Positions 24,506 to 37,574 of a DNA stretch of 64,000 nt are shown here, one piece after another. The stretch is taken from NCBI GenBank assembly GCA_012735575.1, contig JAAYGY010000054.1, positions 3,109 through 67,108 of the forward strand, given 5' to 3'. The first letter of the stretch is position 1, and every line of letters starts with the position of its first letter. Origin of the DNA: Clostridiales bacterium (GTDB lineage: Bacteria > Bacillota > Clostridia > Caldicoprobacterales > UBA3941). Both the position numbers and the translations under genes were made by a program. The notes beneath the pieces were generated by a model. The model did no database searches. It was not told where the DNA came from and saw nothing but the letters and a program-made list of their open reading frames with translations.

Positions 24506-24882
24506 TTTTCATTCTCCTTATCAGCAAGCTCATCAAAGAGTTCTTTTAGTTCCTGCATATCTTCTGAGGATAAGCTGCTTTCCTTAATCATGCATACTAA
24601 TAGATCTTTTAAGCCTGATCCGGATATTCGATCTAGTATGCTTTCACTTTCTGCACGTATGCATTTATTTCGATCAATAGCTGGATAATAGAATTTATCC
24701 CGGCCCAGCATTTCATAACGGGCAACGCCCTTATCACATAGTCGTTTTAAGTAAGTAGAATAGGTAGTATATTTCCAGTCCAGCTGATCTCCAACGGCCT
24801 CTATAACACCTGACAAGGTAAGGGGAGATTTCTCCCATAGAGTATTCATCAATATCCACTCAGGCTTTGTTAAGGTTATCAT
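24502..24882 (-). CDS. BlaI/MecI/CopY-family winged-helix repressor (paralog A)
   Basis: 126 aa. LTKPEWILMNTLWEKSPLTLSGVIEAV...WKYTTYSTYLKRLCDKGVARYEMLGRDKFYYP is typical of the Penicillinase_R family. GAAGGAGGAAG RBS. Confidence 0.85.
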   Translation of the reverse strand: MITLTKPEWILMNTLWEKSPLTLSGVIEAVGDQLDWKYTTYSTYLKRLCDKGVARYEMLGRDKFYYPAIDRNKCIRAESESILDRISGSGLKDLLVCMIKESSLSSEDMQELKELFDELADKENEK

Positions 24883-24907
24883 TGTCTTCCTCCTTCTTGA
24901 TTAAAGA

Positions 24908-24944
24908 GTTGTAAAAGCTATGACTTAGTCATAGCTTTTACAAC
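24908..24944. promoter_or_regulatory. Perfect 17-bp-arm palindrome upstream of blaI-like A (candidate operator and/or inter-module terminator)
   Basis: GTTGTAAAAGCTATGAC-TTA-GTCATAGCTTTTACAAC, 25 nt upstream of the blaI-A start and 62 nt downstream of the blaR-B stop. It contains outward TGTAA/TTACA elements. A TTGACA -35-like hexamer on the minus strand lies at 24997-24992. Confidence 0.55.
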
Positions 24945-25005
24945 TGACTATTAAGTCTTGTTACTTATGTTGTAGTATCTGCCCTCAACCTTGTCAAGCA
25001 CTTTT

Positions 25006-27657
25006 TTAGTAACCTTTATTTCCATCTATAATACTTCCATCTATAGCATTAATTATGGCATAAGTATTGATAGACTTATCTCCCCCAGGACCTGGTACTG
25101 GTGATAGATAACCTTTGTTCAATATGTCCAGATTCTCACCGACCAGCTTTTCAGTTCCTTCAAATATCCATACTGGTACCATACGATAAGCACCAGGTCG
25201 GTCCTTGATAAGCAAACGCATCAGACATAGGCGTATATTTGTTATATTGATTTCACCTGATTGGATGTTCTTAATGACTTCATTGTAATCATTATGCTTG
25301 GGGTCATACCGGGACAGCTTACCAATGTTATACTCTAGCTGCATCTGTTTTTTGAATATGGCTACCGCTTCTTCAAGATCAATGACGTCTACATTATCAC
25401 TTTCAACATCCACAATCTCCATAGGTGAACTCCAGCTAAAGTAGGTAATCATGTGGTTATTGACATTCACATTCAGGCTTTCATGAGGATAGATATGGAT
25501 AAACTGATCATCATGGCTGCCTAGAGTAAATCTTTCCATATTATAAATAGCAACTCCTCCATATGTGGGAACAAAGGTTAAGGAATAGGTGTATACATCC
25601 TCCCCTTCGGCAGGTTCTGGTATATTTGGCCTCTTTCCTCCTCCGGCAGCCATGCTAAGAGCTGCTTTGGAATTTTCAGGAATAGGTGTGTAATAATCCT
25701 TGTAATGACCGTAAGCTCTAATGCTATCCAATCTCATGTTCCTTATTCCCATCTCTATAAGGGCATTTTCTACCATATCAATGACCTGGTCTTTTGTCAT
25801 CTTCATGGGGCGTGAATCAGCAGGGTCCCAGGTTGCAAAATTTACATCATGCATTCTAGATCCCATATCAAAGGCTACTCCATGAGAATGGTAGTTACCT
25901 TTTTCATGATTATAGGCCTGTATCATAGCATGATAATCGTCAATCCTAGTTACGGCAATAAAGGTTTCTGCATCATATAACTGCTCAGCTGTAATATCCT
26001 CTTCTGGGCGTACACTGGCATCAGCCTCCACCTTATCCATATAATATAACTGTGGATGAAAATTCCAATCTGTTTCTTTAAGAGTCACTTTCTCAGGCGC
26101 GATAGAATACATTTCCTCATACCTTGCAATACGTTGCTGGTAATCAGCTTTTATTTCCTCCACAGCCTCATTATTCCCCCCATATCCTTCCAGTAAGGCT
26201 GCCTCATTGCTCATTTCTTTTTTAAGCTTTATAATCTTATCTTCCAACTGGGATTTGGTCATAGCTATTTGAGGTTCATAGGCAACATTTCCACGAAACA
26301 ATACCTTAGTAATATCTTTAATCTGATCCATAGGTATGTTGTATGGTTTAACCTCAACTACCGGTACATCTCCTTCAGGCACAATTACTTCTGCATCTAT
26401 GTTAACAGTAACCTTCTTATCTGCGCCAGCAAAAGAGTCTGTATACCTTTCTACCAAAGAAGTCTTGTCTTTTCTTTCTTTACCTTCTTTACTGGATCTT
26501 ATTGCTTCCTCCAGTTTACTGCCGTCCTTGCCGATAACTATAGGACTGTCGGGAGTTTTCTGACAAGCGGTAGTAAACCCCATAACTAACATCAAAGTTG
26601 CTAGAAATATGGATATACAAGTCAAAGTTTTGGAATTTTTTTCGAGCTTTACGATCCGTACAATCCTCTTCTTCAGTCTGGACTTATTCCTATACAGGGA
26701 GGTAGTAATAGATGGAATGGGTATGCTTGTATTTTTTGAAATGCGAACAGCCTCTATCAGTGACTGGCCGTATATTAATGGATCACATTTACTTAGATGT
26801 TTTACCACCATTTGATCACAGTAAAGTTCAACATCTTCCTGATACAGGCTATATGCTATCCATACCAATGGATTAAACCAGTGAATAGCCTTTGCCAGTA
26901 ACCAGATATAGTTAATAAGTATATCGTGCCTCTTTATATGATAAACCTCGTGAAATAGAATACTGTTTAAAATGTCCCTGTTCATGTTTTCAATAAAAGA
27001 TGCTGGTAAAAGAATGTTTGGTTTAAAATATCCAAATACAACAGGTGTCTTTACAAAATCACACTCTATTAGTGGAATATACTTTTTTATTCCAACACTT
27101 GCCATATGGTCTTCTTTCATCTGTATTATATTTTTATGGGTAATTGGTTTACAAAACCTAAGCCTGCGCCTAAACGATATTGCTTTCCTTATAGTAGCTA
27201 ATAAAATAGATATGGTACCTGTAATCCATATAAATGAAACAATCATCCATAGGGAAAAATTGTCTTTTTTTGCTCCTTGATTGACTTCTTTCAATAAAGG
27301 TTTCCCTTCATGTGAAGAAGGCAAAAGGTTTTTATGGTTATCAGTTTGACTGACCTGTCTATAAACCGATATATTCCTATTAATCATATTGGTAGAATCT
27401 AAATATAATTCATTAGTATTAGCCAGATCAGTTGCTGACGGTTCCAAAGTAGATGTCCCAGGTAATAATTCATATATTTGTACAGGGCTATATACGGTGA
27501 AAGGCAGACATAGGCGCAATAATACCATTCCCCAAAGAATTAGCATAATTGCTGGGCTAATTCTCTTTGCCATGCTCCTTCTAATTATTATGGCTACAAC
27601 TATCATCAAAGATGCCATAAGGGAAATATGAAATAATACTTTTAATAGGGCAGGCAT
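25006..27657 (-). CDS. BlaR1/MecR1-like M56 sensor metalloprotease with the same unrecognised extracellular domain (paralog B)
   Basis: Zinc motif LFHEVYHIKRHD (HExxH, aa 236-240) followed by WFNP. A TM helix at aa 343-363 ends in FTTAC. The C-terminal domain is colinear with paralog A, for example VTVNIDAEVIVPEGDVPVVEVKP, LKETDWNFHP and GEINITNIRLCLMRLLIKDRPGAYRMVPVW. Confidence 0.85.
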   Translation of the reverse strand: MPALLKVLFHISLMASLMIVVAIIIRRSMAKRISPAIMLILWGMVLLRLCLPFTVYSPVQIYELLPGTSTLEPSATDLANTNELYLDSTNMINRNISVYRQVSQTDNHKNLLPSSHEGKPLLKEVNQGAKKDNFSLWMIVSFIWITGTISILLATIRKAISFRRRLRFCKPITHKNIIQMKEDHMASVGIKKYIPLIECDFVKTPVVFGYFKPNILLPASFIENMNRDILNSILFHEVYHIKRHDILINYIWLLAKAIHWFNPLVWIAYSLYQEDVELYCDQMVVKHLSKCDPLIYGQSLIEAVRISKNTSIPIPSITTSLYRNKSRLKKRIVRIVKLEKNSKTLTCISIFLATLMLVMGFTTACQKTPDSPIVIGKDGSKLEEAIRSSKEGKERKDKTSLVERYTDSFAGADKKVTVNIDAEVIVPEGDVPVVEVKPYNIPMDQIKDITKVLFRGNVAYEPQIAMTKSQLEDKIIKLKKEMSNEAALLEGYGGNNEAVEEIKADYQQRIARYEEMYSIAPEKVTLKETDWNFHPQLYYMDKVEADASVRPEEDITAEQLYDAETFIAVTRIDDYHAMIQAYNHEKGNYHSHGVAFDMGSRMHDVNFATWDPADSRPMKMTKDQVIDMVENALIEMGIRNMRLDSIRAYGHYKDYYTPIPENSKAALSMAAGGGKRPNIPEPAEGEDVYTYSLTFVPTYGGVAIYNMERFTLGSHDDQFIHIYPHESLNVNVNNHMITYFSWSSPMEIVDVESDNVDVIDLEEAVAIFKKQMQLEYNIGKLSRYDPKHNDYNEVIKNIQSGEINITNIRLCLMRLLIKDRPGAYRMVPVWIFEGTEKLVGENLDILNKGYLSPVPGPGGDKSINTYAIINAIDGSIIDGNKGY

Positions 27658-27658
27658 T

Positions 27659-28045
27659 TTACTCGCCCCCCTTACCTTTCAAATCCTGAATCAGCCTTTC
27701 CAGTTCATCAAGGTCGTCATCAGTAATTTTTTCGGCTTCTACAAATCTAGCAATCATATGAGGTAAATTTCCGTAATACTTGCTAATTACACTGTTGGCC
27801 TTATCAGCAGCATATTCTTCCCTTGAAACAATAGGGTAGTAACTGTATGATCTCCTGTTTCCTTCTTTGACTCCTACCAGGCCTTTTTCCATAAGCCTAT
27901 TTAGGTATGTATTTACGGTTTGACGTGACCAGTTAAGTATATCCTTAACTTCCTTTTGAATTTTCATGCTGGTGGATACACCATCCCGCCATAGGATTTC
28001 CATGATAATGCTATCTGCCTCAGTTAAATCAGGATATTTACTCAT
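27659..28045 (-). CDS. BlaI/MecI/CopY-family winged-helix repressor (paralog B)
   Basis: 128 aa. LTEADSIIMEILWRDGVSTSMKIQKEV...WSRQTVNTYLNRLMEKGLVGVKEGNRRSYSYYP. The stop lies 1 nt before the blaR-B start. GGGGGG RBS. Confidence 0.85.
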   Translation of the reverse strand: MSKYPDLTEADSIIMEILWRDGVSTSMKIQKEVKDILNWSRQTVNTYLNRLMEKGLVGVKEGNRRSYSYYPIVSREEYAADKANSVISKYYGNLPHMIARFVEAEKITDDDLDELERLIQDLKGKGGE

Positions 28046-28068
28046 ATTAGTTGGCCCCCCTAAAAAAC

Positions 28069-28125
28069 TTTCGACGTAACACTTACGTCTATAATAAGAC
28101 TACAATATTACGTCGAAAATGTCAA
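28069..28125 (-). promoter_or_regulatory. Candidate promoter/operator region of the blaI-B/blaR-B pair
   Basis: Dyad GACGTAA-CAC-TTACGTC at 28073-28089. A third copy, TTACGTCGAAA (28108-28118), is the inverted repeat of TTTCGACGTAA (28069-28079). On the minus strand there is TTGACA (28125-28120), a 17-nt spacer containing the distal half-site, then a weak -10 TAGTCT. Confidence 0.5.
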
Positions 28126-28129
28126 GGGG

Positions 28130-29128
28130 TTATTTCTTTGGAAATAAGGATTTTCTCACAATCACCATGGTTTCCATATTAACGTTTTGCACCTTATCCC
28201 CTTTTATCTTTTTTAAAAGGAGTTCCATAACTTTTTTACCTAATTCATAATGGGGTACATGGACAGTGGTTAAAGGGGGTGTCAGATAACGGCTAAGATT
28301 TAGATTGTCAAATCCCACTACTGAAACATCATAAGGTATTTTCAGCATTAGATCATTGATAGCAGAATAAACAGCAGGGGCTAGGTAGTCATTGCCAGTA
28401 AAGATGGCAGTCGGCCGTTTATAGCGGGTTAGCATTTCTATGACGCTTGAATAGGCATAATCCGGAGTATCACCATCTATGTAGACAATATCCGGGTCAA
28501 ATTCAATACCATGATCTGATAATACCTTACGGTAGGCTTGTAATCTATAGTCTGGTTCCTTTGAAGACCTTAATCTTCTTGCAGTCAAAAAACCTATTCT
28601 TCGGTGACCGCTATTAACAACATATTCCAATAGCTTGACTGCTCCTGCATAAAGGTCCAGGTTCACCAATATAATTTCAGGATCAAACCCCTTATATCCT
28701 TCATTACCAACAAACACTGTTGGTATTCTATACCTTGTAAACCTATTAACATCCTCTATTGCTAGCTTATCTGTAGACATAACAATACCATCGAACTGAC
28801 GCTTGATAAGTTCATCAATATACTCTTTATCCTCCCGGGCATTTAAAATGGAGATAATGTAACCATTTTTAAAGGCCTCTTCCTCCATCCCTAAAGCCAG
28901 TTCTGCAAAATATGGGTTGGAAATACCGTTGGTAACCAGGGCTATCTGATTAGTTTCACGGGTCTTTAGACTTCTTGCCACTAAATTAGGTTTATACCCT
29001 AATTCATCGATAGCCTTCCAAACCAATTCTCTAACTTCCTTACTAACCCCTGGCTTGTTATTAATAACATTTGATACTGTTGCTACTGAAACATGTGCCC
29101 TTTTAGCCACGTCTTCTCTAGTTACCAT
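28130..29128 (-). CDS. LacI-family transcriptional regulator
   Basis: The N-terminal HTH is VTREDVAKRAHVSVATVSNVINNKPGVSKEVRELVWKAIDELGYKPNLVARSL. It is followed by a periplasmic-binding-protein-like effector domain. Confidence 0.9.
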   Translation of the reverse strand: MVTREDVAKRAHVSVATVSNVINNKPGVSKEVRELVWKAIDELGYKPNLVARSLKTRETNQIALVTNGISNPYFAELALGMEEEAFKNGYIISILNAREDKEYIDELIKRQFDGIVMSTDKLAIEDVNRFTRYRIPTVFVGNEGYKGFDPEIILVNLDLYAGAVKLLEYVVNSGHRRIGFLTARRLRSSKEPDYRLQAYRKVLSDHGIEFDPDIVYIDGDTPDYAYSSVIEMLTRYKRPTAIFTGNDYLAPAVYSAINDLMLKIPYDVSVVGFDNLNLSRYLTPPLTTVHVPHYELGKKVMELLLKKIKGDKVQNVNMETMVIVRKSLFPKK

Positions 29129-29221
29129 ATGCCCTCCTGTACTTTAAATATTTCCAATTAATTATATATCACAAGTTTTTGTCTTTCAAGGAATGCCTGA
29201 TAGATATAATCCGGCAAATAG

Positions 29222-29250
29222 AAATAAAAAAATCCGAGCTAAACTCGGAT
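29222..29250 (-). terminator. Rho-independent terminator ending the feo-linked operon
   Basis: On the minus strand: ATCCGAG-TTTAG-CTCGGAT followed by TTTTTTTATTT. It begins 3 nt after the stop at 29253. Confidence 0.7.
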
Positions 29251-29252
29251 AA

Positions 29253-29834
29253 TTATAAATGTTTCAAATAAGTCTTTTTAACTTTAAAACTACTTATCAT
29301 TAGAAGGGATAACAAAACTATAATAAAGGTATTCTCTAAATTTATGGTGCTTTGACTTACTAATTTCAATCTATACACCGTATCCAGTAAATGTTTTCCT
29401 CCCATGACCATCCCTGCTACAGTTATGGGGAGGCCTATTATATATCTTTCATCCGTTGAAATATTGTACCTTGCCAGCCTAAATATACCTCCACCTATAA
29501 ACAATAATGATACTGTAATTTCCCTTATTCCCAATAACCCGTTATTTATGTTCCACCACAATACAATGGGAGCCATTCCAAAGGATACCAGATCACTTAA
29601 AGAATCAAGTTCCCTACCGAATTTGCTAGTAATCCTCAGCTTTCTAGCCACATAACCATCCAGTTTGTCAGTAATCCCCGCTATTACAACTAATAAAGCA
29701 GCAATTTTAATATTAACAGGGGTATTGTTTGTACTTATAAAAATAGCTATTGCCCCTAAGGACATATTTACGTAGGTGATTGCACTGGGTAGTATATGCA
29801 GTTTTGACAATCTATCACATTCTAACCTCAACAT
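29253..29834 (-). CDS. CDP-alcohol phosphatidyltransferase, phosphatidylserine-synthase-like (PssA-like)
   Basis: Exact CDP-alcohol motif DKLDGYVARKLRITSKFGRELDSLSDLVSFGMAP (D-x2-DG-x2-AR-x8-G-x3-D-x3-D). The GRELDS..DLVSFG.AP context resembles Bacillus-type PssA rather than PgsA. I chose the start at 29834 (AAGGTGA RBS), which overlaps the upstream gene by 20 nt. Confidence 0.8.
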   Translation of the reverse strand: MLRLECDRLSKLHILPSAITYVNMSLGAIAIFISTNNTPVNIKIAALLVVIAGITDKLDGYVARKLRITSKFGRELDSLSDLVSFGMAPIVLWWNINNGLLGIREITVSLLFIGGGIFRLARYNISTDERYIIGLPITVAGMVMGGKHLLDTVYRLKLVSQSTINLENTFIIVLLSLLMISSFKVKKTYLKHL

Positions 29835-30834
29835 TATTATCACCTTTCCTGTCTCTTGCTAAAGCAAAGACATTATCCAGCATCAAAATAAAACCGCTTA
29901 TTACAAATTCAAACCAGAAAGTTACAAATCTAAAAATAAAAGCTACAGTTAACCCCATCTCCATAGATATTCCCCTAATAATTAGGAGAATCAACATGGA
30001 ACCTTCAAAACTACCTACACTACCCGGAAGCATAGGGACCATTCCCATTATATAAGTAAGAAAGGTTATAGCCCCTATGGATATATAGTCCATCTTTATA
30101 GCTAGCCCCCTCAAAACCAACAACAGCTTAAAAGCATAAAAAATCCAAATAAAAAGGGCAAGAAACATTTGAAAAGAGAATTTCCTCTTATCCCTTAAAA
30201 AATCTCTTATTATGCTACTGTAGTCTATAAGGGTTTTATCTATTTTGTCCATCAATCTGGTTTTACCTAAAAACTTTCTAAGTAGCTTATTAACCAAAGC
30301 GGGTTTAAAGGAAAACAAGATTATAATTCCTAAAAAAACAACAAACATAACTAAAACCAGAGAAAAGACATATAAATAATGCCTATATTTTATACTCATT
30401 GTAAAGCTAAACCAAATTAGGCTTAGCAGAGTCAAAAAAATAAAGCTAAGAAGACTTAGAGTTTTCTGTAGACCGATAATAATTATGGCTTTTCCAAAAT
30501 CTATCCTTAACCTTTTTTTCAGTTCATAGACCCTTGCCAACTCTCCACCGGCCTTTACCCCCGGGGTAATAGCATCTACCACGTTTCCTTTTGCATTCAT
30601 CATGAGCATGTCCAAAAAAGACACATTTTGTTTAACCCGTAGAGCCATCGACCTCCATTGCAGGGCTAAAAGAAGCTTTGTAATGCATTGCGCCAGCAGC
30701 AATAAGGCTATTGTTTTGGGGGATAGGGACCTGATATGGTCAGCTACCTCTTTCCAATCGGTTTTTATTATAATAAGTACTACTGCTATAGCACCCAGGG
30801 CATAAAGGAAACCCTTAAAATGTTTTTCTTTCAT
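29815..30834 (-). CDS. Flippase-like polytopic membrane protein (UPF0104 / lysyl-PG-synthase TM-region-like)
   Basis: ~8 TM segments. The N-terminus KGFLYALGAIAVVLIIIKTDWKEVADHIRSLSPKTIALLLLAQCITKLLLALQWR has the layout I associate with the MprF flippase-domain family. I chose the start at ATG 30834 (AGGTGA RBS); the GTG at 30843 is an alternative. Confidence 0.65.
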   Translation of the reverse strand: MKEKHFKGFLYALGAIAVVLIIIKTDWKEVADHIRSLSPKTIALLLLAQCITKLLLALQWRSMALRVKQNVSFLDMLMMNAKGNVVDAITPGVKAGGELARVYELKKRLRIDFGKAIIIIGLQKTLSLLSFIFLTLLSLIWFSFTMSIKYRHYLYVFSLVLVMFVVFLGIIILFSFKPALVNKLLRKFLGKTRLMDKIDKTLIDYSSIIRDFLRDKRKFSFQMFLALFIWIFYAFKLLLVLRGLAIKMDYISIGAITFLTYIMGMVPMLPGSVGSFEGSMLILLIIRGISMEMGLTVAFIFRFVTFWFEFVISGFILMLDNVFALARDRKGDNNVEVRM

Positions 30835-30844
30835 ATTAGTCACC

Positions 30845-31411
30845 TTAGATTTTTACCATAAGCAGAATTTCATCCATAGTTTTACCCCTGCTTTCTAATG
30901 AAAAACTACTAATTTCTATAGCTTTATCACTTATAAAGTCATCGCTTATGTTAGAATAAAGAGGTTTTAATATCTTTCTTGGCACCCTCACTATTATTCT
31001 ATTTCCTTCCCTTGACTTCTCCCATATATTTTCCAGTACCTCTTCTTTTGGACTTACCTGCTGGGCTATATGAATTACATCGTAAGGTTCTATGTCTATA
31101 TCCTGTCCTCTTGCATTAAATACAGTTATTTTTTCCTGTAAATTCAGTCTGGATACCACATTCCTGGCGGATTTTACAGCTTTGCTATCTATATCCACCA
31201 CATGAACCTGAGCCTTTGTTTGTTTCGCGATCTCTATAGCCGTTGAGGGAATAGATCCTCCCCCAATACATAATACCCTATCCCAGTTTCTTATATTGGC
31301 CAGGGCTATTTCATTTTTAACTATGCCCCTGTAGTAGAGGCAGTACAGTTCTACTAAGACATCATATTTTGAACAAATTTTTTCTATCCATTTTGTGCAT
31401 GTTCTTATCAT
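30845..31411 (-). CDS. Small Rossmann-fold SAM-binding protein, nicotianamine-synthase-like by motif pattern
   Basis: VLCIGGGSIPSTAIEIA (compare the NAS G-S-G-P-L-P-L-T loop), VHVVDIDSKAV, ITVFNARGQD, YDVIHIAQQV and RIIVRVPRKILKPLYSNISDD (compare the NAS ...R....G.R..LYP.V ending). 188 aa. It starts 6 nt after the feoB stop. Confidence 0.55.
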   Translation of the reverse strand: MIRTCTKWIEKICSKYDVLVELYCLYYRGIVKNEIALANIRNWDRVLCIGGGSIPSTAIEIAKQTKAQVHVVDIDSKAVKSARNVVSRLNLQEKITVFNARGQDIDIEPYDVIHIAQQVSPKEEVLENIWEKSREGNRIIVRVPRKILKPLYSNISDDFISDKAIEISSFSLESRGKTMDEILLMVKI

Positions 31412-31417
31412 TGTATC

Positions 31418-33178
31418 CTACCCCATCAATCCTAATATAAGGCGGCCAACTTGGTTAAATAATCCTCCGAATAAGAAGGCAGAAACGATGGTAATTAATG
31501 CAATAAACAGAGCTGTTTTTAAGGAGAACTCTTTCGTAAGCACGCCAAAAACCGATAAACAGGGTAAATAGAATAGGGCTACAATAGCTCCCACAGTTAG
31601 TTGTAATGTATTTAAATTCATTTCCAACATGGGAAGTACTGCCAGTTCCCTTCTAATTATCCCCAGCAATAGGGAAAGACTAGCTTCTTTTGGCAGCCCC
31701 AGCCATCCCTCGACAAAGGGACCTAGTAACTTACTGAATTCATTAAGTATGCCGGTTTCTGCAATAATTGCTGCCACAATTATACCGATAAACATAGCGC
31801 CTTCAGCATCCATCATGAAATGCTTCATTCTAAGTTTCAGTTTTTTCTTGTAGGCATCCTTATCCGGTAACAATAAATTAGGTACCTCTAATAGCATAGG
31901 CTGACTTTTACCTGGTATTATCCTGTCTAATATAACTCCTACTGCCAGCATTGCTAGTATGGATAAGAGGTAAACAAATATCAAAGCAAAAATAGATTTA
32001 TCTCCTAAAAGAGCAAAAAAGGCTCCGCTTTGAGAAGCACATGGAACAGCAAAGGAAACTAAAGCAGCTACCATTATCCTTTCTTTATTAGTATTTGCAG
32101 CTCTAGTACCTAAAATGGCAGGAACAGCACAGCCATAACCCAGCATCATGGGTATGATATTACCTCCCTGAATACCTATACGCCTAAGCACTCCATCTGC
32201 TAAAACGCCGATTCTGGGTAGGTACCCACTATCTTCTAAGAAAGAAAAGACAACATAGAATAAAAAGACATAAGGAAGGATAAGTGCAAAAGGCCATTCT
32301 ATACCAATGACCAAAATACCAAACTCTCCTACTAAAACATTTCTAAATATGCCTGCAGGTATTACCAAGGATATTATCTTAGTAAGAAAGGGCACAATAA
32401 CCTGCTTGACCAAGGGTAAAAGGACTACAGCTCTTAAAGCTTTCCCGCCCCCTACTACTACTCCCAAAGAAGCAATGAGCACCAATATTGCAATAGGTAT
32501 TCCAGGCCAGGGTTGTATAGTCCAGTCTTCTAATTTTTCAATAAAGGTAAGCTCCTTATCAACCTGGGCTTGAACTTTACTGACTATCTCCTTTATCCTG
32601 TTCCATTTTTCTTCCTCATCTAATTTTGGCTCAGAATCTTTTCTCTCTTTTGACAGCTTAACAGCCGTCTGCATTAGCTCCCGCAGACCCTGATTTTTAA
32701 TGGCTACAGTTGGAATTACGGGACTGCCCAGTTCCTCAGCCAACTTTTCTGCATCAATCTTAATACCTTGTCTTTCAGCAACATCCATTAGGTTTAGGCA
32801 GTATATTATAGGAATAGGATATTCCTTTAATTCAAATGCCAAGCCTAGATTTCGTTCTAAATGGGTAGCATCCAGTACACAAATGACAACATCTGCGCCT
32901 TCTTCCAGTAAAGCAACAGCAACTTTCTCTGCTTCCGATGTAGCCTCCAGGGAATATGTACCGGGCACATCTATCATTACACCCTGTTGCTTACCAAAAT
33001 TAATATCGCCTATGGTGTAATCCACTGTAGTTCCTGTATAATTTGAACTATCTACATGAACACCTGTGAGTTTTGAGAATACTACACTCTTACCCACGTT
33101 GGGATTTCCCATAAGCAATATTTTCATTTTATTATTACCGGGTTTCACCTGAGCAGCAGCGTCTCCATGACAATTCAA
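31418..33178 (-). CDS. feoB: Ferrous iron transporter FeoB
   Basis: The G-domain is MKILLMGNPNVGKSVVFSKLTG...DVPGTYSL...LNLMD. It is followed by a polytopic membrane domain. The TTG start at 33178 overlaps the feoA stop, with a GAGGAGG RBS inside the feoA 3-prime end. The ATG at 33127 is the alternative start. Confidence 0.9.
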   Translation of the reverse strand: MNCHGDAAAQVKPGNNKMKILLMGNPNVGKSVVFSKLTGVHVDSSNYTGTTVDYTIGDINFGKQQGVMIDVPGTYSLEATSEAEKVAVALLEEGADVVICVLDATHLERNLGLAFELKEYPIPIIYCLNLMDVAERQGIKIDAEKLAEELGSPVIPTVAIKNQGLRELMQTAVKLSKERKDSEPKLDEEEKWNRIKEIVSKVQAQVDKELTFIEKLEDWTIQPWPGIPIAILVLIASLGVVVGGGKALRAVVLLPLVKQVIVPFLTKIISLVIPAGIFRNVLVGEFGILVIGIEWPFALILPYVFLFYVVFSFLEDSGYLPRIGVLADGVLRRIGIQGGNIIPMMLGYGCAVPAILGTRAANTNKERIMVAALVSFAVPCASQSGAFFALLGDKSIFALIFVYLLSILAMLAVGVILDRIIPGKSQPMLLEVPNLLLPDKDAYKKKLKLRMKHFMMDAEGAMFIGIIVAAIIAETGILNEFSKLLGPFVEGWLGLPKEASLSLLLGIIRRELAVLPMLEMNLNTLQLTVGAIVALFYLPCLSVFGVLTKEFSLKTALFIALITIVSAFLFGGLFNQVGRLILGLMG

Positions 33179-33396
33179 TTTTGTACAACCTCCTCAACCA
33201 GAATCTCATTTGCAATATCATAATCAATGGCTATGCTTCTATTACCAACCTTGACTACTATAGGCCCCTTAAAAGGTTGTTTACTTTGAATTGTAAACTG
33301 TGTCCCCTTTCTGAAACCCAGAACTTTTAATAAATGTGAACTAGGTAATGCTTGAATTCTATAGGTGGATAATTTTTCTCCATGTGCTAAAGGCAT
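33175..33396 (-). CDS. feoA: FeoA family protein
   Basis: 73-aa SH3-like protein. RIQALPSSHLLKVLGFRKGTQFTIQSKQPFKGPIVVKVGNRSIAIDYDIANEILV. GAGGAGGA RBS. Confidence 0.85.
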   Translation of the reverse strand: MPLAHGEKLSTYRIQALPSSHLLKVLGFRKGTQFTIQSKQPFKGPIVVKVGNRSIAIDYDIANEILVEEVVQN

Positions 33397-33423
33397 TATG
33401 ATCCTCCTCTTGTATAATCAATA

Positions 33424-33440
33424 TTGATAATCATTATCAA
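33424..33440. promoter_or_regulatory. Fur box upstream of feoA
   Basis: TTGATAATCATTATCAA is a perfect palindrome that contains the 7-1-7 Fur consensus TGATAAT-N-ATTATCA exactly. It lies 28 nt upstream of the feoA ATG. The -10 candidates TATACT and TATTAT abut it on the minus strand. Confidence 0.75.
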
Positions 33441-33650
33441 CTATAATATAGTATAGCATAGATTTTTATATTTCTCCATAGCTTTGTGAAAATTTTATTT
33501 AAAATACACAATTTAACCTGTTCCGCCAGTTCGGCCTTTAAATCTTTATTCATATAATGGCTGTTGACAAGTGATCGCCTTCGCTGATTTGGCTTTAGAA
33601 AACTTGGCTTATGGAATGCAAAAAAACCGTAGCCTAGGCAGGATACCAAA

Positions 33651-33680
33651 GGGAAAATGGCTTAACTGATCCATTTTCCC
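33651..33680 (-). terminator. Rho-independent terminator after the heterodimeric ABC exporter genes
   Basis: The 10-bp arms gggaaaatgg / ccattttccc flank a 10-nt loop. On the minus strand the hairpin is followed by TTTGG. It lies 70 nt downstream of the stop at 33751. Confidence 0.55.
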
Positions 33681-33750
33681 CTTACTCAATCCCTAATCAC
33701 ACTTATTGCATTTTTGTTCACTATTTTTATAATTACAAGTATATCAAGTA

Positions 33751-35535
33751 TTACACAGCATTTAGATATTTATACTGTGCTTTATATAAGTCATAGTAAG
33801 CACCTTTTTGAGCCAGTAATTCTTCATGGCTGCCTGCTTCTATTATAGTTCCCTGATCAACTACCATAATACGATCTGCATTTCGTATGGTTGACAGTCT
33901 ATGGGCAATAACAAAGGATGTTCTACCTTTTAGTAATCGTTCAAGTCCCTTTTGTACTAAAATCTCGGTTTGGGTATCTATACTTGAGGTAGCCTCATCC
34001 AGGATTAAGATTCTTGGATCGGCCAGCAGTGCTCTAGCGAAGGAGATTAACTGCTTTTGTCCTTGAGATAATTTAGAACCCCGCTCATTTACCTCGGTAT
34101 AATAGCCCTTTTCCATTTGAGAGATGAATTCATGGGCATGTACAGCGCGTGCTGCATTCATTACTTCCTCATCAGTAGCATCCAGTTTACCATACCTTAT
34201 ATTATCCATGATAGTTCCCGAGAATATGAAACTATCCTGCAGCATTACTCCCATCTGCTTTCTAAGAGAATCCAAGGTAACTTTTTTTATATCATGCCCG
34301 TCGATTAATACTTTTCCTTTAACGGGATCATAAAAACGGCTAATTAGATTTACTATAGTACTCTTCCCGGCACCTGTAGGTCCAACCAAGGCAATAGTTT
34401 CTCCGGGTTTAACAGTAAAATCCACATACTCTAATACTGGTTTTTCAGGGTCATAGTAAAATTGTAAATTATCAAACCTTACCTCGCCTTTTATTTCAGG
34501 CAGCTCATAGGCATCAGGATCGTCCTTGATATCTGGCTTGGTATCCAATAATTCAAAAATTCTTTCAGTAGATGCCATAGCTACCAACAGGGAATTATAA
34601 AAGTTGGCCAGGTTGTTAATGGGCTGCCATATTCTCCATACATAGCCGGTAAAAGCAACCAGTACACCCACGGTGACGGTACCAGCATCCAAAAACCTCA
34701 TACCAAATACATAAACCAATACTACTCCTAATACTCCTATCAACTCTATACCAGGCCAGAATAAATTATTAACCCTAATGGCATGCATCCATGTAGTAAA
34801 TATATCTCCACTTAGCTCATTATATAAATCCCTTGTCTCCTTCTGTCTTACAAAGGCCTGGGTAACTCTCATACCAGCCAGGTTTTCATGAAGATAGGCA
34901 TTCATATTGGAGCTTTTCTTTCTTACTTCCTGCCATCTTCTACGTATACGTCTTTTCAATAATCCGACTAATATCATTAATAGAGGTACCGTGCAAAGGG
35001 TAACCAATGTTAACCTGGCATCAATGTAAGCCATTATTACTATGGCTATTATAAGTGTGAATACGTCAGTTAAAACATTTATTATACCATTGGTTAACAG
35101 GTCTCCCAAAGAGTTAACATCATTAATTATGCGCACTAAAATTTTTCCGGCAGGCCGACTATCATAAAATGTAAAGGATAGGGTCTGTATATGTTCAAAT
35201 AGGTCCTGCCGTATCCTGTACAGGATTTTCTGTCCTACTGATGACATTATATATACTCTCTGTCTCATACATACCATATTTACCAGGTTAGTTGCCAGAT
35301 ATAGCATGGTAATTATGGTTAATCCCCTGTAATCAGCAACTTCTATATAATCATCAATGGCTATTTGTAGAAAATATGGTCCCAACAAACCGCACACAGC
35401 AGCCACCATCATCAATATAAGGGTTATGACAATCTGTTTACGATAGGGTTTCATATATCTGACTAGTCTCTTAAACTGGTCCATATCAAAAGGCTTTTCC
35501 AGTTCTTCATCATCTATGAGTCTATTTTTTAACAC
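33751..35535 (-). CDS. ABC exporter, fused TMD-NBD half-transporter (subunit with consensus Walker B, degenerate signature)
   Basis: 594 aa. Walker A GPTGAGKST, signature LSQGQKQLISFARA (degenerate) and Walker B ILILDEATSSID. Confidence 0.9.
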   Translation of the reverse strand: MLKNRLIDDEELEKPFDMDQFKRLVRYMKPYRKQIVITLILMMVAAVCGLLGPYFLQIAIDDYIEVADYRGLTIITMLYLATNLVNMVCMRQRVYIMSSVGQKILYRIRQDLFEHIQTLSFTFYDSRPAGKILVRIINDVNSLGDLLTNGIINVLTDVFTLIIAIVIMAYIDARLTLVTLCTVPLLMILVGLLKRRIRRRWQEVRKKSSNMNAYLHENLAGMRVTQAFVRQKETRDLYNELSGDIFTTWMHAIRVNNLFWPGIELIGVLGVVLVYVFGMRFLDAGTVTVGVLVAFTGYVWRIWQPINNLANFYNSLLVAMASTERIFELLDTKPDIKDDPDAYELPEIKGEVRFDNLQFYYDPEKPVLEYVDFTVKPGETIALVGPTGAGKSTIVNLISRFYDPVKGKVLIDGHDIKKVTLDSLRKQMGVMLQDSFIFSGTIMDNIRYGKLDATDEEVMNAARAVHAHEFISQMEKGYYTEVNERGSKLSQGQKQLISFARALLADPRILILDEATSSIDTQTEILVQKGLERLLKGRTSFVIAHRLSTIRNADRIMVVDQGTIIEAGSHEELLAQKGAYYDLYKAQYKYLNAV

Positions 35536-35536
35536 C

Positions 35537-37288
35537 TTACATCACCTGCCTATCTTCTGTAAATTCCTCGAAATCCTTATACTGCTGAGAGTATATCTCA
35601 AAATACTTTCCTCGCTGTTTGACCAGTTGATCATGGGTACCTCTTTCAACAATTTGCCCGTCATCTAAAACTATGATCTCATCAGCATCTTTAACCGAAG
35701 ATATTCTATGGGCGATAATGAATGTAGTCCTTCCTTCCATAATATCCTTAAGTGCCTGCTGAATTGCATACTCCGTTTCCATATCCACAGCTGAAGTACA
35801 GTCGTCCATAATAAGTATCTTAGGATTCTTAATTATTGCCCTGGCAATAGCAATTCTCTGCTTTTGTCCTCCAGATAGTCCCATACCACGTTCTCCAACA
35901 ATGGTGTCATATCCTTGAGGCATTTCCATTATAAAATCATGGGCAGCAGCAATTTTTGCAGCCTTTATTACATCCTCTCTGGTAGCATCAGGTTTACCAT
36001 ACATTATATTTTCCTCAATTGTAGCAGAAAAGAGGAAAACATCCTGCATAACAATTCCTATATTCTCTCTTAAAGTATTAGTCTTCCAATCCCTTACATC
36101 CACTCCATCAACCAAAACCCTGCCTCTGGATACATCATAGAAGCGATTGAGAGCGTTGATAATAGAGGTTTTTCCAGCTCCAGTAGCCCCCATAATTGCA
36201 ACGGTTTTTCCTGCAGGGGCATCTATGTCTATATTCTTTAAGGCTTGGTGATCACCGTAATGCAAGGCTACACCTTCAAATCTAACATGACCTTGTACCT
36301 CTTGTGGATCATATGGGTTTTCCTTATCTACTACAATAGATCCAGTATCCAGCACATTAAAAACTCTTTCACCGGAAGATACTGCCTGCTCCATAACATT
36401 GATTACCCATCCCAACATTCTCATTGGGTTTATTAGCATCCATAAATAATTATTAAAAGCAACCAATGTTCCTAGTGAAATCTCTCCCCCAGCTACCATC
36501 CGACCTCCAAACCATAAAACAGAGACTGCACATAGACCTGATATAAAGTCCATTAGGGGAAAGAATTTAGCCCATATCCTGGCAGAATTAACGTTTTTCT
36601 CTAAGTTAAGTCTATTTTCCTTTTCGAATTTTTGGATTTCAAACGCTTCCCTGGCAAAGGCCTTTACTACTCTTACCCCGGCAATATTTTCCTGAGTTGT
36701 AGTGTTCAGGGCAGCCTGCTGCTCCCTGATGGCACTAAATGCCGGACGAATACGGGTATCAAATCTCATGGCCAACCAGGCTACGAAGGGCAAAACCGCC
36801 AAACTGACCAAGGCCAACTTGACATTCATAGCTAAAAGAATAATAGAGGTTCCTACAAAATAGATAAAGTTTTCAATAAATATGGTTATTCCACCGGCAA
36901 TGAAAGCCCTTATACCTTCAAGGTCTCCGGTCATCCTTGACATCAGTTCACCTATGCGGTTGTTATCAAAGTATGTAAAGGATTGACCTTGTAAATGGGT
37001 AAACATTTCATTTCTAAGATCATACATACAACTTTGAGAAACCTTCTCAAAGAAATATCCACGAAAATATAGGGATAATCCTTTTACAGCTGATATTATT
37101 ACCATGGCAAATAGAAGCACAGGTAATAGCTTACGATTTCCACCATGTATAACATCGTCAATTATACTCTTAGAAATAAGTGGAGTAATCATATTGAGAA
37201 AAATGACAAAAATTAAAAGGGTCACGGCTGCAATAGCCTTTCCCCTGTACCTTCCAATATAACCCAATATTCGTTTGATAATAAACAA
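35537..37288 (-). CDS. ABC exporter, fused TMD-NBD half-transporter (subunit with Asp replacing the catalytic Glu)
   Basis: 583 aa. Walker A GATGAGKTS, signature LSGGQKQRIAIARA and Walker B ILIMDDCTSAVD (D instead of E). TTG start with a GAGGGGG RBS. The stop lies 1 nt before the partner gene. Confidence 0.9.
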   Translation of the reverse strand: MFIIKRILGYIGRYRGKAIAAVTLLIFVIFLNMITPLISKSIIDDVIHGGNRKLLPVLLFAMVIISAVKGLSLYFRGYFFEKVSQSCMYDLRNEMFTHLQGQSFTYFDNNRIGELMSRMTGDLEGIRAFIAGGITIFIENFIYFVGTSIILLAMNVKLALVSLAVLPFVAWLAMRFDTRIRPAFSAIREQQAALNTTTQENIAGVRVVKAFAREAFEIQKFEKENRLNLEKNVNSARIWAKFFPLMDFISGLCAVSVLWFGGRMVAGGEISLGTLVAFNNYLWMLINPMRMLGWVINVMEQAVSSGERVFNVLDTGSIVVDKENPYDPQEVQGHVRFEGVALHYGDHQALKNIDIDAPAGKTVAIMGATGAGKTSIINALNRFYDVSRGRVLVDGVDVRDWKTNTLRENIGIVMQDVFLFSATIEENIMYGKPDATREDVIKAAKIAAAHDFIMEMPQGYDTIVGERGMGLSGGQKQRIAIARAIIKNPKILIMDDCTSAVDMETEYAIQQALKDIMEGRTTFIIAHRISSVKDADEIIVLDDGQIVERGTHDQLVKQRGKYFEIYSQQYKDFEEFTEDRQVM

Positions 37289-37574
37289 AAAATAAAACCC
37301 CCTCTAACCATATTTGTTTGATTTAACTCCATATTATTTTACTTTTCAGTATTGGTCAATCAACAAATATGGGAGATATCATTTAAATTTTACCTTAAAT
37401 TCCATCAAAGCCAAACAGTTACCTCACATCTTCAAAGTTTAGCAAATTAATAGAAATACCTGCTGATTTTAACTTATCATTTACTTTGATAAAACAAATA
37501 AAATATATAACACTATATATTACAAGGTTTTTTAATATGTAAACAAATTTAATGTTGAAAATATAAATTATAAT

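What the first reader, a model, noticed from the sequence alone, without database searches (positions are those of the whole stretch)
30845..31411. 188-aa protein with a nicotianamine-synthase-like motif series but lacking the usual N-terminal domain
Seen directly, the protein has this ordered series of motifs:
- VLCIGGGSIPSTAIEIA
- VHVVDIDSKAVKSARNVVSRLNL
- ITVFNARGQDIDIEPYDVIHIAQQV
- EEVLENIWEKSREGNRIIVRVPRKILKPLYSNISDD

From memory of NAS-family sequences, plant NAS and the archaeal MtNAS have G-S-G-P-L-P-L-T, a V-x-x-(I/V)-(D/E)-I-(D/E)-P strand and F-D-V-(V/L)-x-x-A-A-L. They end with R-x-x-x-G-x-R-x-x-L-Y-x-P-V. The spacing and chemistry here match that pattern better than a generic methyltransferase. 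A generic methyltransferase would have E/DxGxGxG and no G-S-x-P-x-T loop.

The protein is roughly 80 aa shorter than the NAS enzymes I recall, with only ~45 aa before the glycine loop. Inference: it may be a minimal aminocarboxypropyl-transferase-type enzyme with a new acceptor.
Basis: partly seen in the sequence, partly recalled or inferred. Interest (0 to 1): 0.6.

Follow-up and report, generated by a model that had tools for sequence, protein, structure and literature searches.

The report
Short nicotianamine-synthase-like enzyme in iron-uptake operon
The gene encodes a stripped-down relative of nicotianamine synthase that is conserved inside an iron-starvation-controlled ferrous-iron uptake operon, next to a lipid flippase-like protein and often a phosphatidylserine synthase, which suggests an undescribed link between iron import and a modified, possibly metal-binding, membrane lipid.

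Summary
A 188-aa ORF on the minus strand (31411..30845) carries all four quoted motifs. Its best matches are the NAS/CntL family: Pfam NAS is above threshold, the family profile gives E 2e-19 to MtNAS against about 1e-4 for any other fold, and the fold search ranks MtNAS and then CntL first. It lacks about 78 N-terminal residues, and 170 representative clusters share this short form.

It is not a canonical NAS. The catalytic Tyr is kept (Y27 = MtNAS Y107), but the canonical catalytic Glu81 column falls on the initiator Met.

The new result is the context. The gene is the third of a five-gene operon: feoA, feoB, short NAS, an MprF-flippase-like (PplT) gene and a pssA-like gene. A perfect Fur box precedes the operon and a terminator follows it. 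In 36 Bacillota genomes the flippase-like gene follows in 36 and feoB precedes in 35. Two fusions exist elsewhere: NAS-NAS-FeoA and flippase::PssA-like.

Most likely it is a SAM-dependent aminocarboxypropyl transferase acting on an aminophospholipid head group (phosphatidylserine), making a chelating lipid that is flipped outward to serve FeoB. The chemistry, the acceptor and the role of the product are inferred, not shown.

The parts
30845..31411 (-). Short NAS-family protein, 188 aa. Predicted as two N-terminal helices (aa 2-13, 16-37) plus a Rossmann domain. Family-invariant residues: E10, Y26, Y27, E34, C48, G50-G52, P55, D73, D75, G102, H114, Q118, R142, P144, Y152.
33175..33396 (-). feoA (73 aa), first gene of the operon.
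   Evidence: Pfam FeoA E 2.4e-13
31418..33178 (-). feoB (586 aa), ferrous-iron permease/GTPase. It overlaps the feoA stop by 4 nt and ends 6 nt before the NAS-like ATG.
   Evidence: TIGR00437 324.6 bits, above the 315.65 cutoff; Pfam FeoB_N, Gate, FeoB_C
29815..30843 (-). MprF-flippase-like (PplT / LPG_synthase_TM) membrane protein. It is 342 aa from GTG 30843, or more likely 339 aa from ATG 30834, which has an AAGGTG ribosome-binding site.
   Evidence: Pfam PF03706 E 3.6e-42; TIGR00374 flippase-like domain; P0180 is 339 aa and 100% identical; junction sequence
29253..29843 (-). pssA-like CDP-alcohol phosphatidyltransferase (196 aa). The motif D-x2-DG-x2-AR-x8-G-x3-D-x3-D is intact.
   Evidence: TIGR00473 pssA 111.6 bits (cutoff 107); best PDB match is M. 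jannaschii PS synthase 7b1k/7pow, E about 1.6e-15; motif read directly from the translation
33425..33439 (.). Fur box TGATAAT-N-ATTATCA. It is a perfect 7-1-7 palindrome ending 28 nt upstream of the feoA ATG, just downstream of promoter-like hexamers.
   Evidence: The only 0-mismatch match in the 64-kb window. Conserved in 32 of 32 related loci at <=3 mismatches and in 25 of 32 at <=2, against 1.3-1.7% in controls. Promoter-like sites at 33490..33450.
29222..29250 (-). Intrinsic terminator-like hairpin (ATCCGAG-TTTA-GCTCGGAT) followed by TTTTTTATTT, starting 2 nt after the pssA-like stop. It marks the end of the operon.

Best explanation
The ORF encodes a minimal, N-terminally reduced member of the nicotianamine-synthase/CntL superfamily. 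It is one component of a Fur-repressed five-gene operon: feoA-feoB-shortNAS-pplT(flippase-like)-pssA-like.

Proposed mechanism. Under iron starvation the operon is derepressed. The PssA-like enzyme makes phosphatidylserine on the cytoplasmic leaflet; in genomes that lack this gene, housekeeping PS would supply it. The short NAS-like enzyme binds SAM in its Rossmann domain. Its active site is open because the lid-forming N-terminal domain is absent. It transfers the 3-amino-3-carboxypropyl group of SAM to the alpha-amine of the serine head group and releases MTA. This is the same type of reaction that NAS enzymes perform on Glu and CntL on His. The product carries a nicotianamine-like diamino-dicarboxylate head group. 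The MprF-flippase-like protein moves it to the outer leaflet, where it concentrates Fe(II) next to FeoB.

What is shown: family homology, conservation of the short form, operon structure, the Fur box, conservation of the gene order, and the two fusions. What is inferred: aminocarboxypropyl rather than methyl transfer, a lipid acceptor, the order of the PssA and NAS steps, and the iron-chelating role of the product.
For: Homology. Pfam NAS is above its gathering score and all methyltransferase models are below theirs. PDB sequence searches give MtNAS 1e-12 (single sequence) and 2.4e-19 (profile), CntL 1e-10 and 3e-14, and the next hit at 0.007 and 1e-4. The AF2 model (pLDDT 88.6) matches MtNAS chains at ranks 1-4 and CntL at ranks 5-12. 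hhalign against archaeal NAS gives 99.6% probability and places Y27 on catalytic Y107, E34 on the invariant NE Glu, R142 on the invariant Arg and Y152 on the LY Tyr.

Operon. Gene gaps or overlaps are at most 29 nt, there is one Fur box upstream and one terminator downstream.

Conservation. In 36 Bacillota genome loci with unrelated flanks, the flippase-like gene directly follows in 36, feoB directly precedes in 35, and the PssA-like gene follows in 19. A Fur box lies upstream of feoA in every locus examined.

Fusions. P0101 is NAS-NAS-FeoA and sits next to feoB. P0205 and P0207 are flippase::CDP-alcohol-phosphatidyltransferase fusions placed directly after the short NAS gene in Tepidimicrobium. 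This is the MprF layout of flippase plus lipid synthase.

Literature. All characterised NAS-like enzymes alkylate an amino group and rely on Glu81/Tyr107 (PMC10491745). PF03706 is the MprF lipid-translocating domain and is found fused to varied lipid enzymes (10.1101/2022.03.11.483950). PS is the common phospholipid whose head group is an alpha-amino acid (established knowledge).
Against: There is no biochemical evidence. The canonical catalytic Glu (MtNAS E81, essential in AtNAS1 as E77; PMC10248798) has no positional equivalent. In the ungapped register that also fits the predicted helices, its column falls on the initiator Met, and the invariant E10 lies 9 residues further on. The chemistry could therefore differ. 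The second Arg of the NAS 'TGMR' motif is replaced by Leu.

The PssA-like gene is absent next to the cassette in 15 of 34 evaluable loci. The NAS-NAS-FeoA fusion locus has no flippase or lipid gene nearby, so the link to Feo does not strictly require lipid genes. Fold similarity to ordinary methyltransferases is only modestly weaker (COMT E 8e-10). FeoB is generally thought to take up free Fe2+ without a chelator.
Confidence: 0.38

Rival explanations
1. The enzyme makes a soluble nicotianamine-like chelator by aminocarboxypropylating a free amino acid. The chelator either buffers Fe(II) as it emerges from FeoB in the cytoplasm, as nicotianamine does in plants, or is exported, with the flippase-like protein acting as the exporter.
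For: Every characterised member of the family makes a small-molecule metallophore (PMC10491745). The NAS-NAS-FeoA fusion sits beside FeoB with no lipid genes, which would place the enzyme at the cytoplasmic face of FeoB. PssA-like is absent from about half of the cassettes.
Against: The buried acceptor chamber formed by the N-terminal domain, which holds small acceptors in MtNAS and CntL, is missing. No CntM-type opine dehydrogenase, racemase, or MFS/EamA exporter appears in the annotated loci. PF03706 proteins are known only as lipid translocators. In this same cassette the flippase-like protein is fused to a phospholipid synthase.
Confidence: 0.22
2. The protein has reverted to, or kept, methyl transfer. 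It N-methylates an aminophospholipid (PS or PE, as PmtA does) or another membrane substrate, and the flippase-like protein moves the product.
For: It has the class I Rossmann fold. Several methyltransferase Pfam models score just below threshold (Methyltransf_25 24.8 against 27). The canonical NAS catalytic Glu and the N-terminal domain are absent. Bacterial PmtA enzymes are of similar size (own knowledge). The PplT preprint reports fusions of PplT with the SAM-methyltransferase superfamily.
Against: Sequence similarity to NAS/CntL is 10-15 orders of magnitude stronger than to any methyltransferase. The NAS-type G-x-G-x-x-P-x-T loop, Y107, and the R and Y of the C-terminal motif are conserved. 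The motif I acidic residue typical of methyltransferases is replaced by an invariant Cys. There is no evident reason for lipid methylation to be Fur-controlled and tied to Feo.
Confidence: 0.15
3. The enzyme acts on a protein, modifying FeoB, FeoA or another partner, or it is a SAM-binding regulatory subunit of the Feo transporter.
For: It is fused directly to FeoA in one lineage. It is adjacent to feoB in 35 of 36 loci. The open active site could accept a macromolecule.
Against: The flippase-like partner is even more constant (36 of 36), and it is fused to a lipid synthase. No NAS-family member is known to modify proteins. Active-site residues are invariant, which argues for catalysis.
Confidence: 0.1
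4. It is an ordinary, unrelated small methyltransferase that lies after feoB by chance.
For: Some sources annotate it as 'class I SAM-dependent methyltransferase'.
Against: The gene order is conserved across classes of Bacillota with unrelated flanking genes, there are two independent fusions, and the Fur box is conserved.
Confidence: 0.02

Closest known systems
MtNAS (thermonicotianamine synthase, Methanothermobacter; PDB 3FPE/3FPG/3O31) and plant or fungal nicotianamine synthases (Pfam PF03059)
   Same: Homologous Rossmann domain with about 26% identity. It shares the GGG-x-x-P-x-T SAM loop, the catalytic Tyr (Y27 = Y107), the NE Glu, and the Arg and Tyr of the C-terminal R...LY motif. MtNAS is the best match by both sequence and fold.
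   Different: About 78 N-terminal residues are missing, including the helices that close the reaction chamber and the Glu81 position. 'TGMR' is replaced by 'P-[KR]-K-x-L'. H114 and Q118 are invariant only in the short family. The genomic context is Feo, flippase and PssA; the archaeal homologue sampled here lies among Co/Ni chelatase and transport genes.
CntL (staphylopine, pseudopaline and yersinopine biosynthesis; PDB 7C7M/7C9M)
   Same: It is the second-best structural and sequence match and the best NCBIfam hit. It is a bacterial enzyme linked to metal uptake that performs a single aminocarboxypropyl transfer to an amino-acid amine.
   Different: It scores 53.8 bits against an equivalog cutoff of 350. 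There is no CntM, CntK, CntE/I or CntABCDF partner. Regulation is by Fur (iron) rather than a zinc or nickel context. The partner transporter is FeoAB and not an ABC importer.
MprF (aminoacyl-phosphatidylglycerol synthase plus flippase) and PplT-domain proteins
   Same: The logic is the same: a cytoplasmic head-group-modifying enzyme paired with a PF03706 flippase that exposes the modified lipid on the outside. The synthase::flippase fusion layout is reproduced by P0205 and P0207.
   Different: The modifying enzymes are a SAM-dependent NAS-like protein and a CDP-alcohol phosphatidyltransferase, not the tRNA-dependent aa-PG synthase domain. The proposed purpose is iron acquisition, not charge-based resistance to cationic peptides.
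BtaA (SAM:diacylglycerol 3-amino-3-carboxypropyl transferase of betaine-lipid synthesis)
   Same: It is the only known enzyme that puts a SAM-derived aminocarboxypropyl group on a membrane lipid, so it is a precedent for the proposed chemistry.
   Different: It is not homologous to NAS (PMC10491745). It alkylates an O atom of diacylglycerol under phosphate limitation and has no link to iron.

Membership tests
NAS/CntL aminocarboxypropyl transferases (Pfam PF03059) | Score above Pfam's gathering threshold for PF03059 | tested here: met
   36.4 bits against 27.1, E 4.8e-9. Only the C-terminal half of the model is matched (positions 120-239 of 276).
NAS/CntL aminocarboxypropyl transferases (Pfam PF03059) | Rossmann C-terminal domain with the glycine-rich SAM loop G-x-G-x-x-P-x-T | tested here: met
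   G50-G-G-S-I-P55-S-T57 is invariant or nearly invariant in the family and aligns to GGGPLPLT of MtNAS. The model has a Rossmann strand order and its top fold hits are MtNAS and CntL.
NAS/CntL aminocarboxypropyl transferases (Pfam PF03059) | Catalytic Tyr (MtNAS Y107, AtNAS1 Y106) | tested here: met
   The invariant Y27 aligns with the Y of 'PRY' in phmmer, hmmsearch, hhalign and MAFFT alignments.
NAS/CntL aminocarboxypropyl transferases (Pfam PF03059) | Catalytic Glu (MtNAS E81, CntL E84, AtNAS1 E77) | tested here: not met
   In the L-INS-i and G-INS-i joint alignments the '[KR]LE' Glu column coincides with the initiator Met. The invariant E10 aligns with a variable column 9 residues later. 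This rests on alignment and predicted secondary structure, because no 3-D superposition could be inspected.
NAS/CntL aminocarboxypropyl transferases (Pfam PF03059) | N-terminal helical domain of about 100 aa that encloses a buried acceptor chamber | tested here: not met
   Only two helices (aa 2-13 and 16-37) precede the Rossmann domain. The ORF cannot be extended.
NAS/CntL aminocarboxypropyl transferases (Pfam PF03059) | SAM is converted to MTA, i.e. aminocarboxypropyl and not methyl transfer | not testable with these tools
   This needs an enzyme assay.
CntL (NCBIfam NF033601 equivalog) / opine metallophore cluster | Equivalog score, plus a neighbouring CntM opine dehydrogenase and dedicated exporter and importer | tested here: not met
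   53.8 bits against a cutoff of 350. No CntM-type gene appears in the window neighbourhood or in the annotated loci L001, L002, L041-L043.
Generic class I SAM methyltransferases | A methyltransferase Pfam model above its threshold, and an acidic residue before the G-x-G-x-G loop (motif I) | tested here: not met
   The best is Methyltransf_25 at 24.8 bits against 27, and all others are lower. The position before the loop is an invariant Cys (LCIGGG).
MprF-type lipid modification and translocation system | PF03706 flippase (PplT) domain encoded with, or fused to, a lipid head-group synthase | tested here: met
   PF03706 E 3.6e-42 for the neighbouring gene. It is adjacent in 36 of 36 loci. It is fused to a CDP-alcohol phosphatidyltransferase in P0205 and P0207.
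MprF-type lipid modification and translocation system | tRNA-dependent aminoacyl-PG synthase domain | tested here: not met
   The bifunctional MprF model scores only 32.3 bits against 600, over the flippase part only. No such domain is present in the operon.
Phosphatidylserine synthase, CDP-alcohol phosphatidyltransferase type (the neighbouring gene) | Motif D-x2-DG-x2-AR-x8-G-x3-D-x3-D, and the TIGR00473 cutoff | tested here: met
   The motif is present (DKLDGYVARKLRITSKFGRELDSLSD). The score is 111.6 bits against 107. The best PDB match is PS synthase 7b1k/7pow. The alcohol substrate was not tested.
Fur regulon | A 7-1-7 Fur box TGATAATNATTATCA in the promoter region | tested here: met
   Perfect match at 33425-33439, unique in the window. 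It is conserved upstream of feoA in 32 of 32 loci. Binding and regulation were not tested.

The most novel reading that the evidence does not exclude
Bacillota, many of them alkaliphilic anaerobes, make a phospholipid-anchored nicotianamine-like chelator under iron starvation. Phosphatidylserine, made by a dedicated PssA, is N-aminocarboxypropylated by a lid-less NAS-family enzyme. An MprF-type flippase moves it to the outer leaflet, where it captures Fe(II) for FeoB. This would be a membrane-tethered metallophore, and the first accessory chemistry known for the Feo system.
Probability: 0.3. Interest if true: 0.9.

Novelty: new variant of a known kind. Interest (0 to 1): 0.72.

Why it matters
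Feo is the main ferrous-iron importer of anaerobes, and how it obtains Fe(II) outside the cell and hands it over inside is still unclear. No chelator or lipid partner is known for it. This work finds a conserved, Fur-controlled cassette that couples feoAB to a NAS-family enzyme and an MprF-type flippase, with fusions that confirm both links. That gives a concrete, testable candidate for such a partner.

It also extends the NAS/CntL family to a minimal form with an open active site and no canonical catalytic Glu, so new acceptor chemistry is plausible. It assigns a specific physiological context to one branch of the largely uncharacterised PplT flippase-like proteins. Cultured carriers exist for experiments: Alkaliphilus metalliredigens QYMF, Tepidimicrobium xylanilyticum, Tissierella simiarum and Evansella species.

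Tried and rejected
- **Plus-strand reading.** It is full of stops, so the gene is on the minus strand.
- **Longer N-terminus.** Excluded, because there is an in-frame stop 3 codons upstream.
- **Riboswitch or other known RNA.** Rfam finds nothing in 28000-38000 at E<=1.
- **E10 as the equivalent of MtNAS E81.** Profile searches leave the first 25 residues unaligned. The joint MAFFT alignments place E10 on a variable column and E81 on the initiator Met. The E-INS-i solution, which pairs E10 with a far-N-terminal 'IE', was judged not credible.
- **The 205-aa ORF upstream of the NAS-NAS-FeoA fusion.** It has no NAS similarity and no Pfam hit, and is probably spurious.
- **More distant short-NAS representatives (P0160, P0179).** They lie on 1-4 kb contigs and give no usable context.
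- **Exact look-up of P0026.** It found no record. The same locus was reached through P0205.
- **Literature.** Six searches for Feo plus NAS, Feo plus flippase, or aminocarboxypropyl-phospholipid found nothing describing this cassette.
- **Opine-metallophore (CntLM) cluster.** Rejected, because there is no CntM and the score is far below the CntL equivalog cutoff.
Full report
**1. The observation**

The coordinates 30845-31411 hold a complete ORF, but on the minus strand. The plus-strand frame is full of stops. The minus strand gives a 188-aa protein with an ATG start.

The N-terminus cannot be longer. The ATG lies 6 nt after the feoB stop codon, and that TAG is in frame with the ORF three codons upstream. 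An SD-like GGGGTAGGA precedes the ATG.

**2. Family assignment**

- Against Pfam, only NAS (PF03059) exceeds its gathering score (36.4 against 27.1 bits, E 4.8e-9). Every methyltransferase model is below its own threshold.
- In NCBIfam the best hit is the CntL equivalog, at 53.8 bits and far below its 350-bit cutoff.
- Against all PDB sequences, the single sequence gives MtNAS E about 1e-12, CntL about 1e-10 and the next protein 0.007.
- The profile of 30 family members gives MtNAS 2.4e-19 and CntL 3e-14. The next hits, at about 1e-4, are unrelated Rossmann proteins.
- An AlphaFold2 model (pLDDT 88.6, pTM 0.87) matches MtNAS chains at Foldseek ranks 1-4 (E about 1e-12, TM 0.77, 26% identity) and CntL at ranks 5-12. 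Generic O-methyltransferases follow from E 8e-10.
- Profile-profile alignment to archaeal NAS gives 99.6% probability and E 4e-24.

**3. What is kept and what is lost**

Query residues 19-161 align with MtNAS 97-239, so about 78 N-terminal residues are missing.

The short form is not an accident of this genome. There are 30 clusters at 90% identity, all 180-214 aa long. An exhaustive profile search gives 1915 representatives at E<=1e-3, 969 at <=1e-10 and 170 at <=1e-30. Nearly all of the top 150 are 165-225 aa.

Residues invariant in the family are E10, Y26, Y27, E34, C48, G50-G52, P55, D73, D75, G102, H114, Q118, R142, P144 and Y152 (renumbered to include Met1).

According to the literature, NAS-like enzymes use Glu81 and Tyr107 (MtNAS numbering) to deprotonate the acceptor amine (PMC10491745). 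The equivalent E77Q and Y106F mutants inactivate AtNAS1 (PMC10248798).

- Y27 aligns with Y107 in every alignment.
- The Glu does not align. In archaeal NAS sequences it is the Glu of a conserved '[KR]LE' motif, 26 residues before the Tyr.
- In the ungapped register found by L-INS-i and G-INS-i, that column coincides with the initiator Met of the short family. This register also places the predicted helix break S14-K15 on the archaeal 'DP'.
- In the same register the invariant E10 falls on a variable NAS column 9 residues later.
- The second Arg of the NAS 'RTYTGMR' motif is replaced by Leu. H114 and Q118, at the C-terminal edge of strand 4, are invariant only in the short family.

**4. The context in the window**

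On the minus strand the gene order is:

- feoA (33396..33175)
- feoB (33178..31418)
- the short NAS (31411..30845)
- a PF03706 'LPG_synthase_TM' flippase-like protein (30843 or 30834..29815, E 3.6e-42)
- a CDP-alcohol phosphatidyltransferase (29843..29253)

The last protein passes the TIGR00473 pssA cutoff (111.6 against 107 bits). It carries the full D-x2-DG-x2-AR-x8-G-x3-D-x3-D motif, and its best solved relative is the M. jannaschii PS synthase.

Gene spacings run from a 29-nt overlap to a 6-nt gap. A hairpin plus T-run lies 2 nt after the last stop.

Upstream of feoA, 28 nt before its ATG and just after promoter-like hexamers, is a perfect TGATAATGATTATCA. This is the 7-1-7 Fur box known from B. 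subtilis (consensus from my own knowledge). It is the only exact match in the 64-kb window. No Rfam family matches the region.

**5. Conservation of the context**

Two divergent members, from Alkalithermobacter (47% identity) and Tissierella (56%), show the same five genes in the same order with completely different flanking genes.

A scan of reference genomes returned 36 loci. They come from Tissierellia, Clostridia, Tepidanaerobacter, Alkaliphilus, Alkalithermobacter, Desulfitispora alkaliphila, Heliorestis, Peptococcaceae, and the bacilli Evansella and Pelagirhabdus. Searching their six-frame ORFs with the window's proteins gave these counts:

| Gene | Position relative to the short NAS | Loci (of 36) |
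|---|---|---|
| Flippase-like | directly downstream | 36 |
| feoB | directly upstream | 35 (L026 is the exception) |
| feoA | upstream of feoB | 30 (4 of the 6 misses are cut by a contig end) |
| PssA-like | downstream of the flippase-like gene | 19 (2 further loci are cut by a contig end) |

Where the PssA-like gene is missing, the cassette simply ends after the flippase-like gene.

A Fur box with <=3 mismatches lies upstream of feoA in all 32 loci that could be examined. In 25 of 32 it has <=2 mismatches, usually 18-37 nt from the start codon. The control rates for <=2 mismatches are 1.3% in random windows and 1.7% in shuffled upstream regions.

**6. Fusions**

- *NAS to FeoA.* One representative, P0101 (592 aa, from a high-GC MAG), consists of two short-NAS domains (each E about 2e-26 to the family HMM) followed by a FeoA domain (E 5e-14). 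It lies directly before feoB, and no separate feoA was annotated in the locus.
- *Flippase to PssA-like.* In Tepidimicrobium xylanilyticum the flippase-like and PssA-like proteins are a single 517-aa polypeptide (PF03706 + PF01066) encoded directly after feoA-feoB-shortNAS. P0207 is a second fusion of the same kind.

The first fusion ties the enzyme physically to the Feo machinery at the cytoplasmic face of the membrane. The second reproduces the MprF layout of flippase plus head-group synthase, and ties the flippase-like protein to phospholipid synthesis.

A preprint on PF03706 ('PplT') proteins describes the domain as the MprF lipid translocator. It occurs alone or fused to many lipid enzymes, including members of the SAM-methyltransferase superfamily. 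The preprint does not mention iron, Feo or NAS.

**7. Mechanism proposed**

The parts make biochemical sense together.

- All characterised NAS-like enzymes alkylate the amine of an alpha-amino acid with the aminocarboxypropyl group of SAM.
- Phosphatidylserine is the common phospholipid whose head group is an alpha-amino acid.
- Loss of the lid domain would open the acceptor site to a membrane-embedded substrate.
- A flippase of the kind that exposes Lys-PG would move the product to the outer leaflet.
- The product, N-(3-amino-3-carboxypropyl)-phosphatidylserine, would carry a diamino-dicarboxylate head group resembling the xNA and thermonicotianamine chelators.
- Fur control and the link to FeoAB point to Fe(II) as the metal.

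I rate this specific model at about 0.38. The broader statement, that this is a NAS-superfamily enzyme functionally coupled to FeoAB and a PplT flippase under Fur control, I rate at about 0.85.

Aminocarboxypropyl rather than methyl transfer, the lipid acceptor, the order of the two synthetic steps and the chelating role are all inferences. The absence of the canonical Glu is the main reason for caution about the chemistry.

**8. Rivals**

- *Soluble nicotianamine-like chelator (0.22).* It would act as a cytoplasmic Fe(II) acceptor or be exported. It fits the family's history and the FeoA fusion, whose locus has no lipid genes. It fits poorly with the missing acceptor chamber, the lack of CntM or exporter genes, and the flippase::PssA fusion.
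- *Lipid N-methyltransferase (0.15).* The fold and the lost Glu allow it. It is disfavoured by the 10-15 orders of magnitude stronger similarity to NAS/CntL and by the conserved NAS-type residues.
- *Protein-modifying or regulatory subunit of Feo (0.10).*
- *Chance neighbour (0.02).* Contradicted by the conservation.

**9. Known or new**

Six full-text searches, and reading of the zincophore-mapping paper (PMC7438024), the NAS papers and the PplT preprint, found no description of a short NAS family, of a Feo-NAS link or of an aminocarboxypropylated phospholipid. Public annotations read 'hypothetical protein', 'class I SAM-dependent methyltransferase' or 'nicotianamine synthase family protein'.

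I classify the finding as a new variant of a known kind. If the lipid-anchored chelator is real, the system as a whole would be new.

Interest is 0.72. The score rests on a robust, conserved and fusion-supported association that makes an open question about Feo directly testable. It is tempered by the complete lack of biochemical evidence.

Noticed in passing
L003-L038, L043 (organism names): Carriers of the cassette include many alkaliphiles or soda-lake and serpentinising-site organisms: Alkaliphilus peptidifermentans, A. pronyensis, A. metalliredigens, Alkalithermobacter, Desulfitispora alkaliphila, Heliorestis acidaminivorans, Evansella and Pelagirhabdus alkalitolerans. Fe(II) is very poorly soluble at high pH, which would fit a surface chelator. 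I ran no statistical test for enrichment.
   Followed up: no
L023:1857-2444 (+): In one Clostridia MAG a second, divergent short-NAS paralogue (195 aa; Pfam NAS E 4e-11; family HMM E 7e-35) follows the flippase-like gene, in the place that the PssA-like gene occupies elsewhere.
   Followed up: partly
L020:7868-9502, L022:7742-9637, L024:7858-8460, L043:9779-11399: In Alkaliphilus-type loci without the PssA-like gene, a conserved unannotated protein of about 195-260 aa (no Pfam hit) lies about 300 nt downstream of the flippase-like gene, followed by an AIR-synthase-related (AIRS/AIRS_C) protein. This could be plain synteny or an alternative accessory module.
   Followed up: partly
L039:11646-12677 / L040:6080-7111: In the high-GC MAG with the NAS-NAS-FeoA fusion, feoB is followed by an AsnA-type aspartate-ammonia ligase homologue (Pfam AsnA E 7e-97), an unusual neighbour for a Feo operon.
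   Followed up: no
P0219, P0220, P0222; L047: Archaeal (Methanobacterium) NAS homologues also occur in naturally short forms of 193-207 aa. These lack the first 40-60 residues of MtNAS but keep the 'KLE' (Glu81) helix. P0220 lies among CobN, CbiX and CbiM cobalt/nickel genes.
   Followed up: partly
window 21845-28045 (-): There are two tandem pairs of a BlaI/MecI-type repressor (126 and 128 aa) and a very long BlaR1-like membrane protein (886 and 883 aa, with the HExxH motif). The large C-terminal domains of the two long proteins are related to each other and are not the usual penicillin-binding sensor by eye.
   Followed up: no
window 33751-37288 (-): A pair of ABC exporter genes (594 and 583 aa, fused permease-ATPase type by their sequence motifs) ends about 350 nt upstream of the feo promoter. 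It is not conserved next to the cassette in other genomes, so it is probably unrelated.
   Followed up: no
window 33437-33649 (-): The mechanical 70-aa TTG ORF in the feoA upstream region overlaps the promoter and Fur-box area and is most likely not a gene.
   Followed up: no
NCBIfam hit: The second-best NCBIfam match is the 'corrinoid protein-associated methyltransferase CpaM' model (33 bits, far below its cutoff). It aligns from residue 7 of the protein to position 6 of the model, so CpaM may be another small family with a similarly short N-terminus.
   Followed up: no
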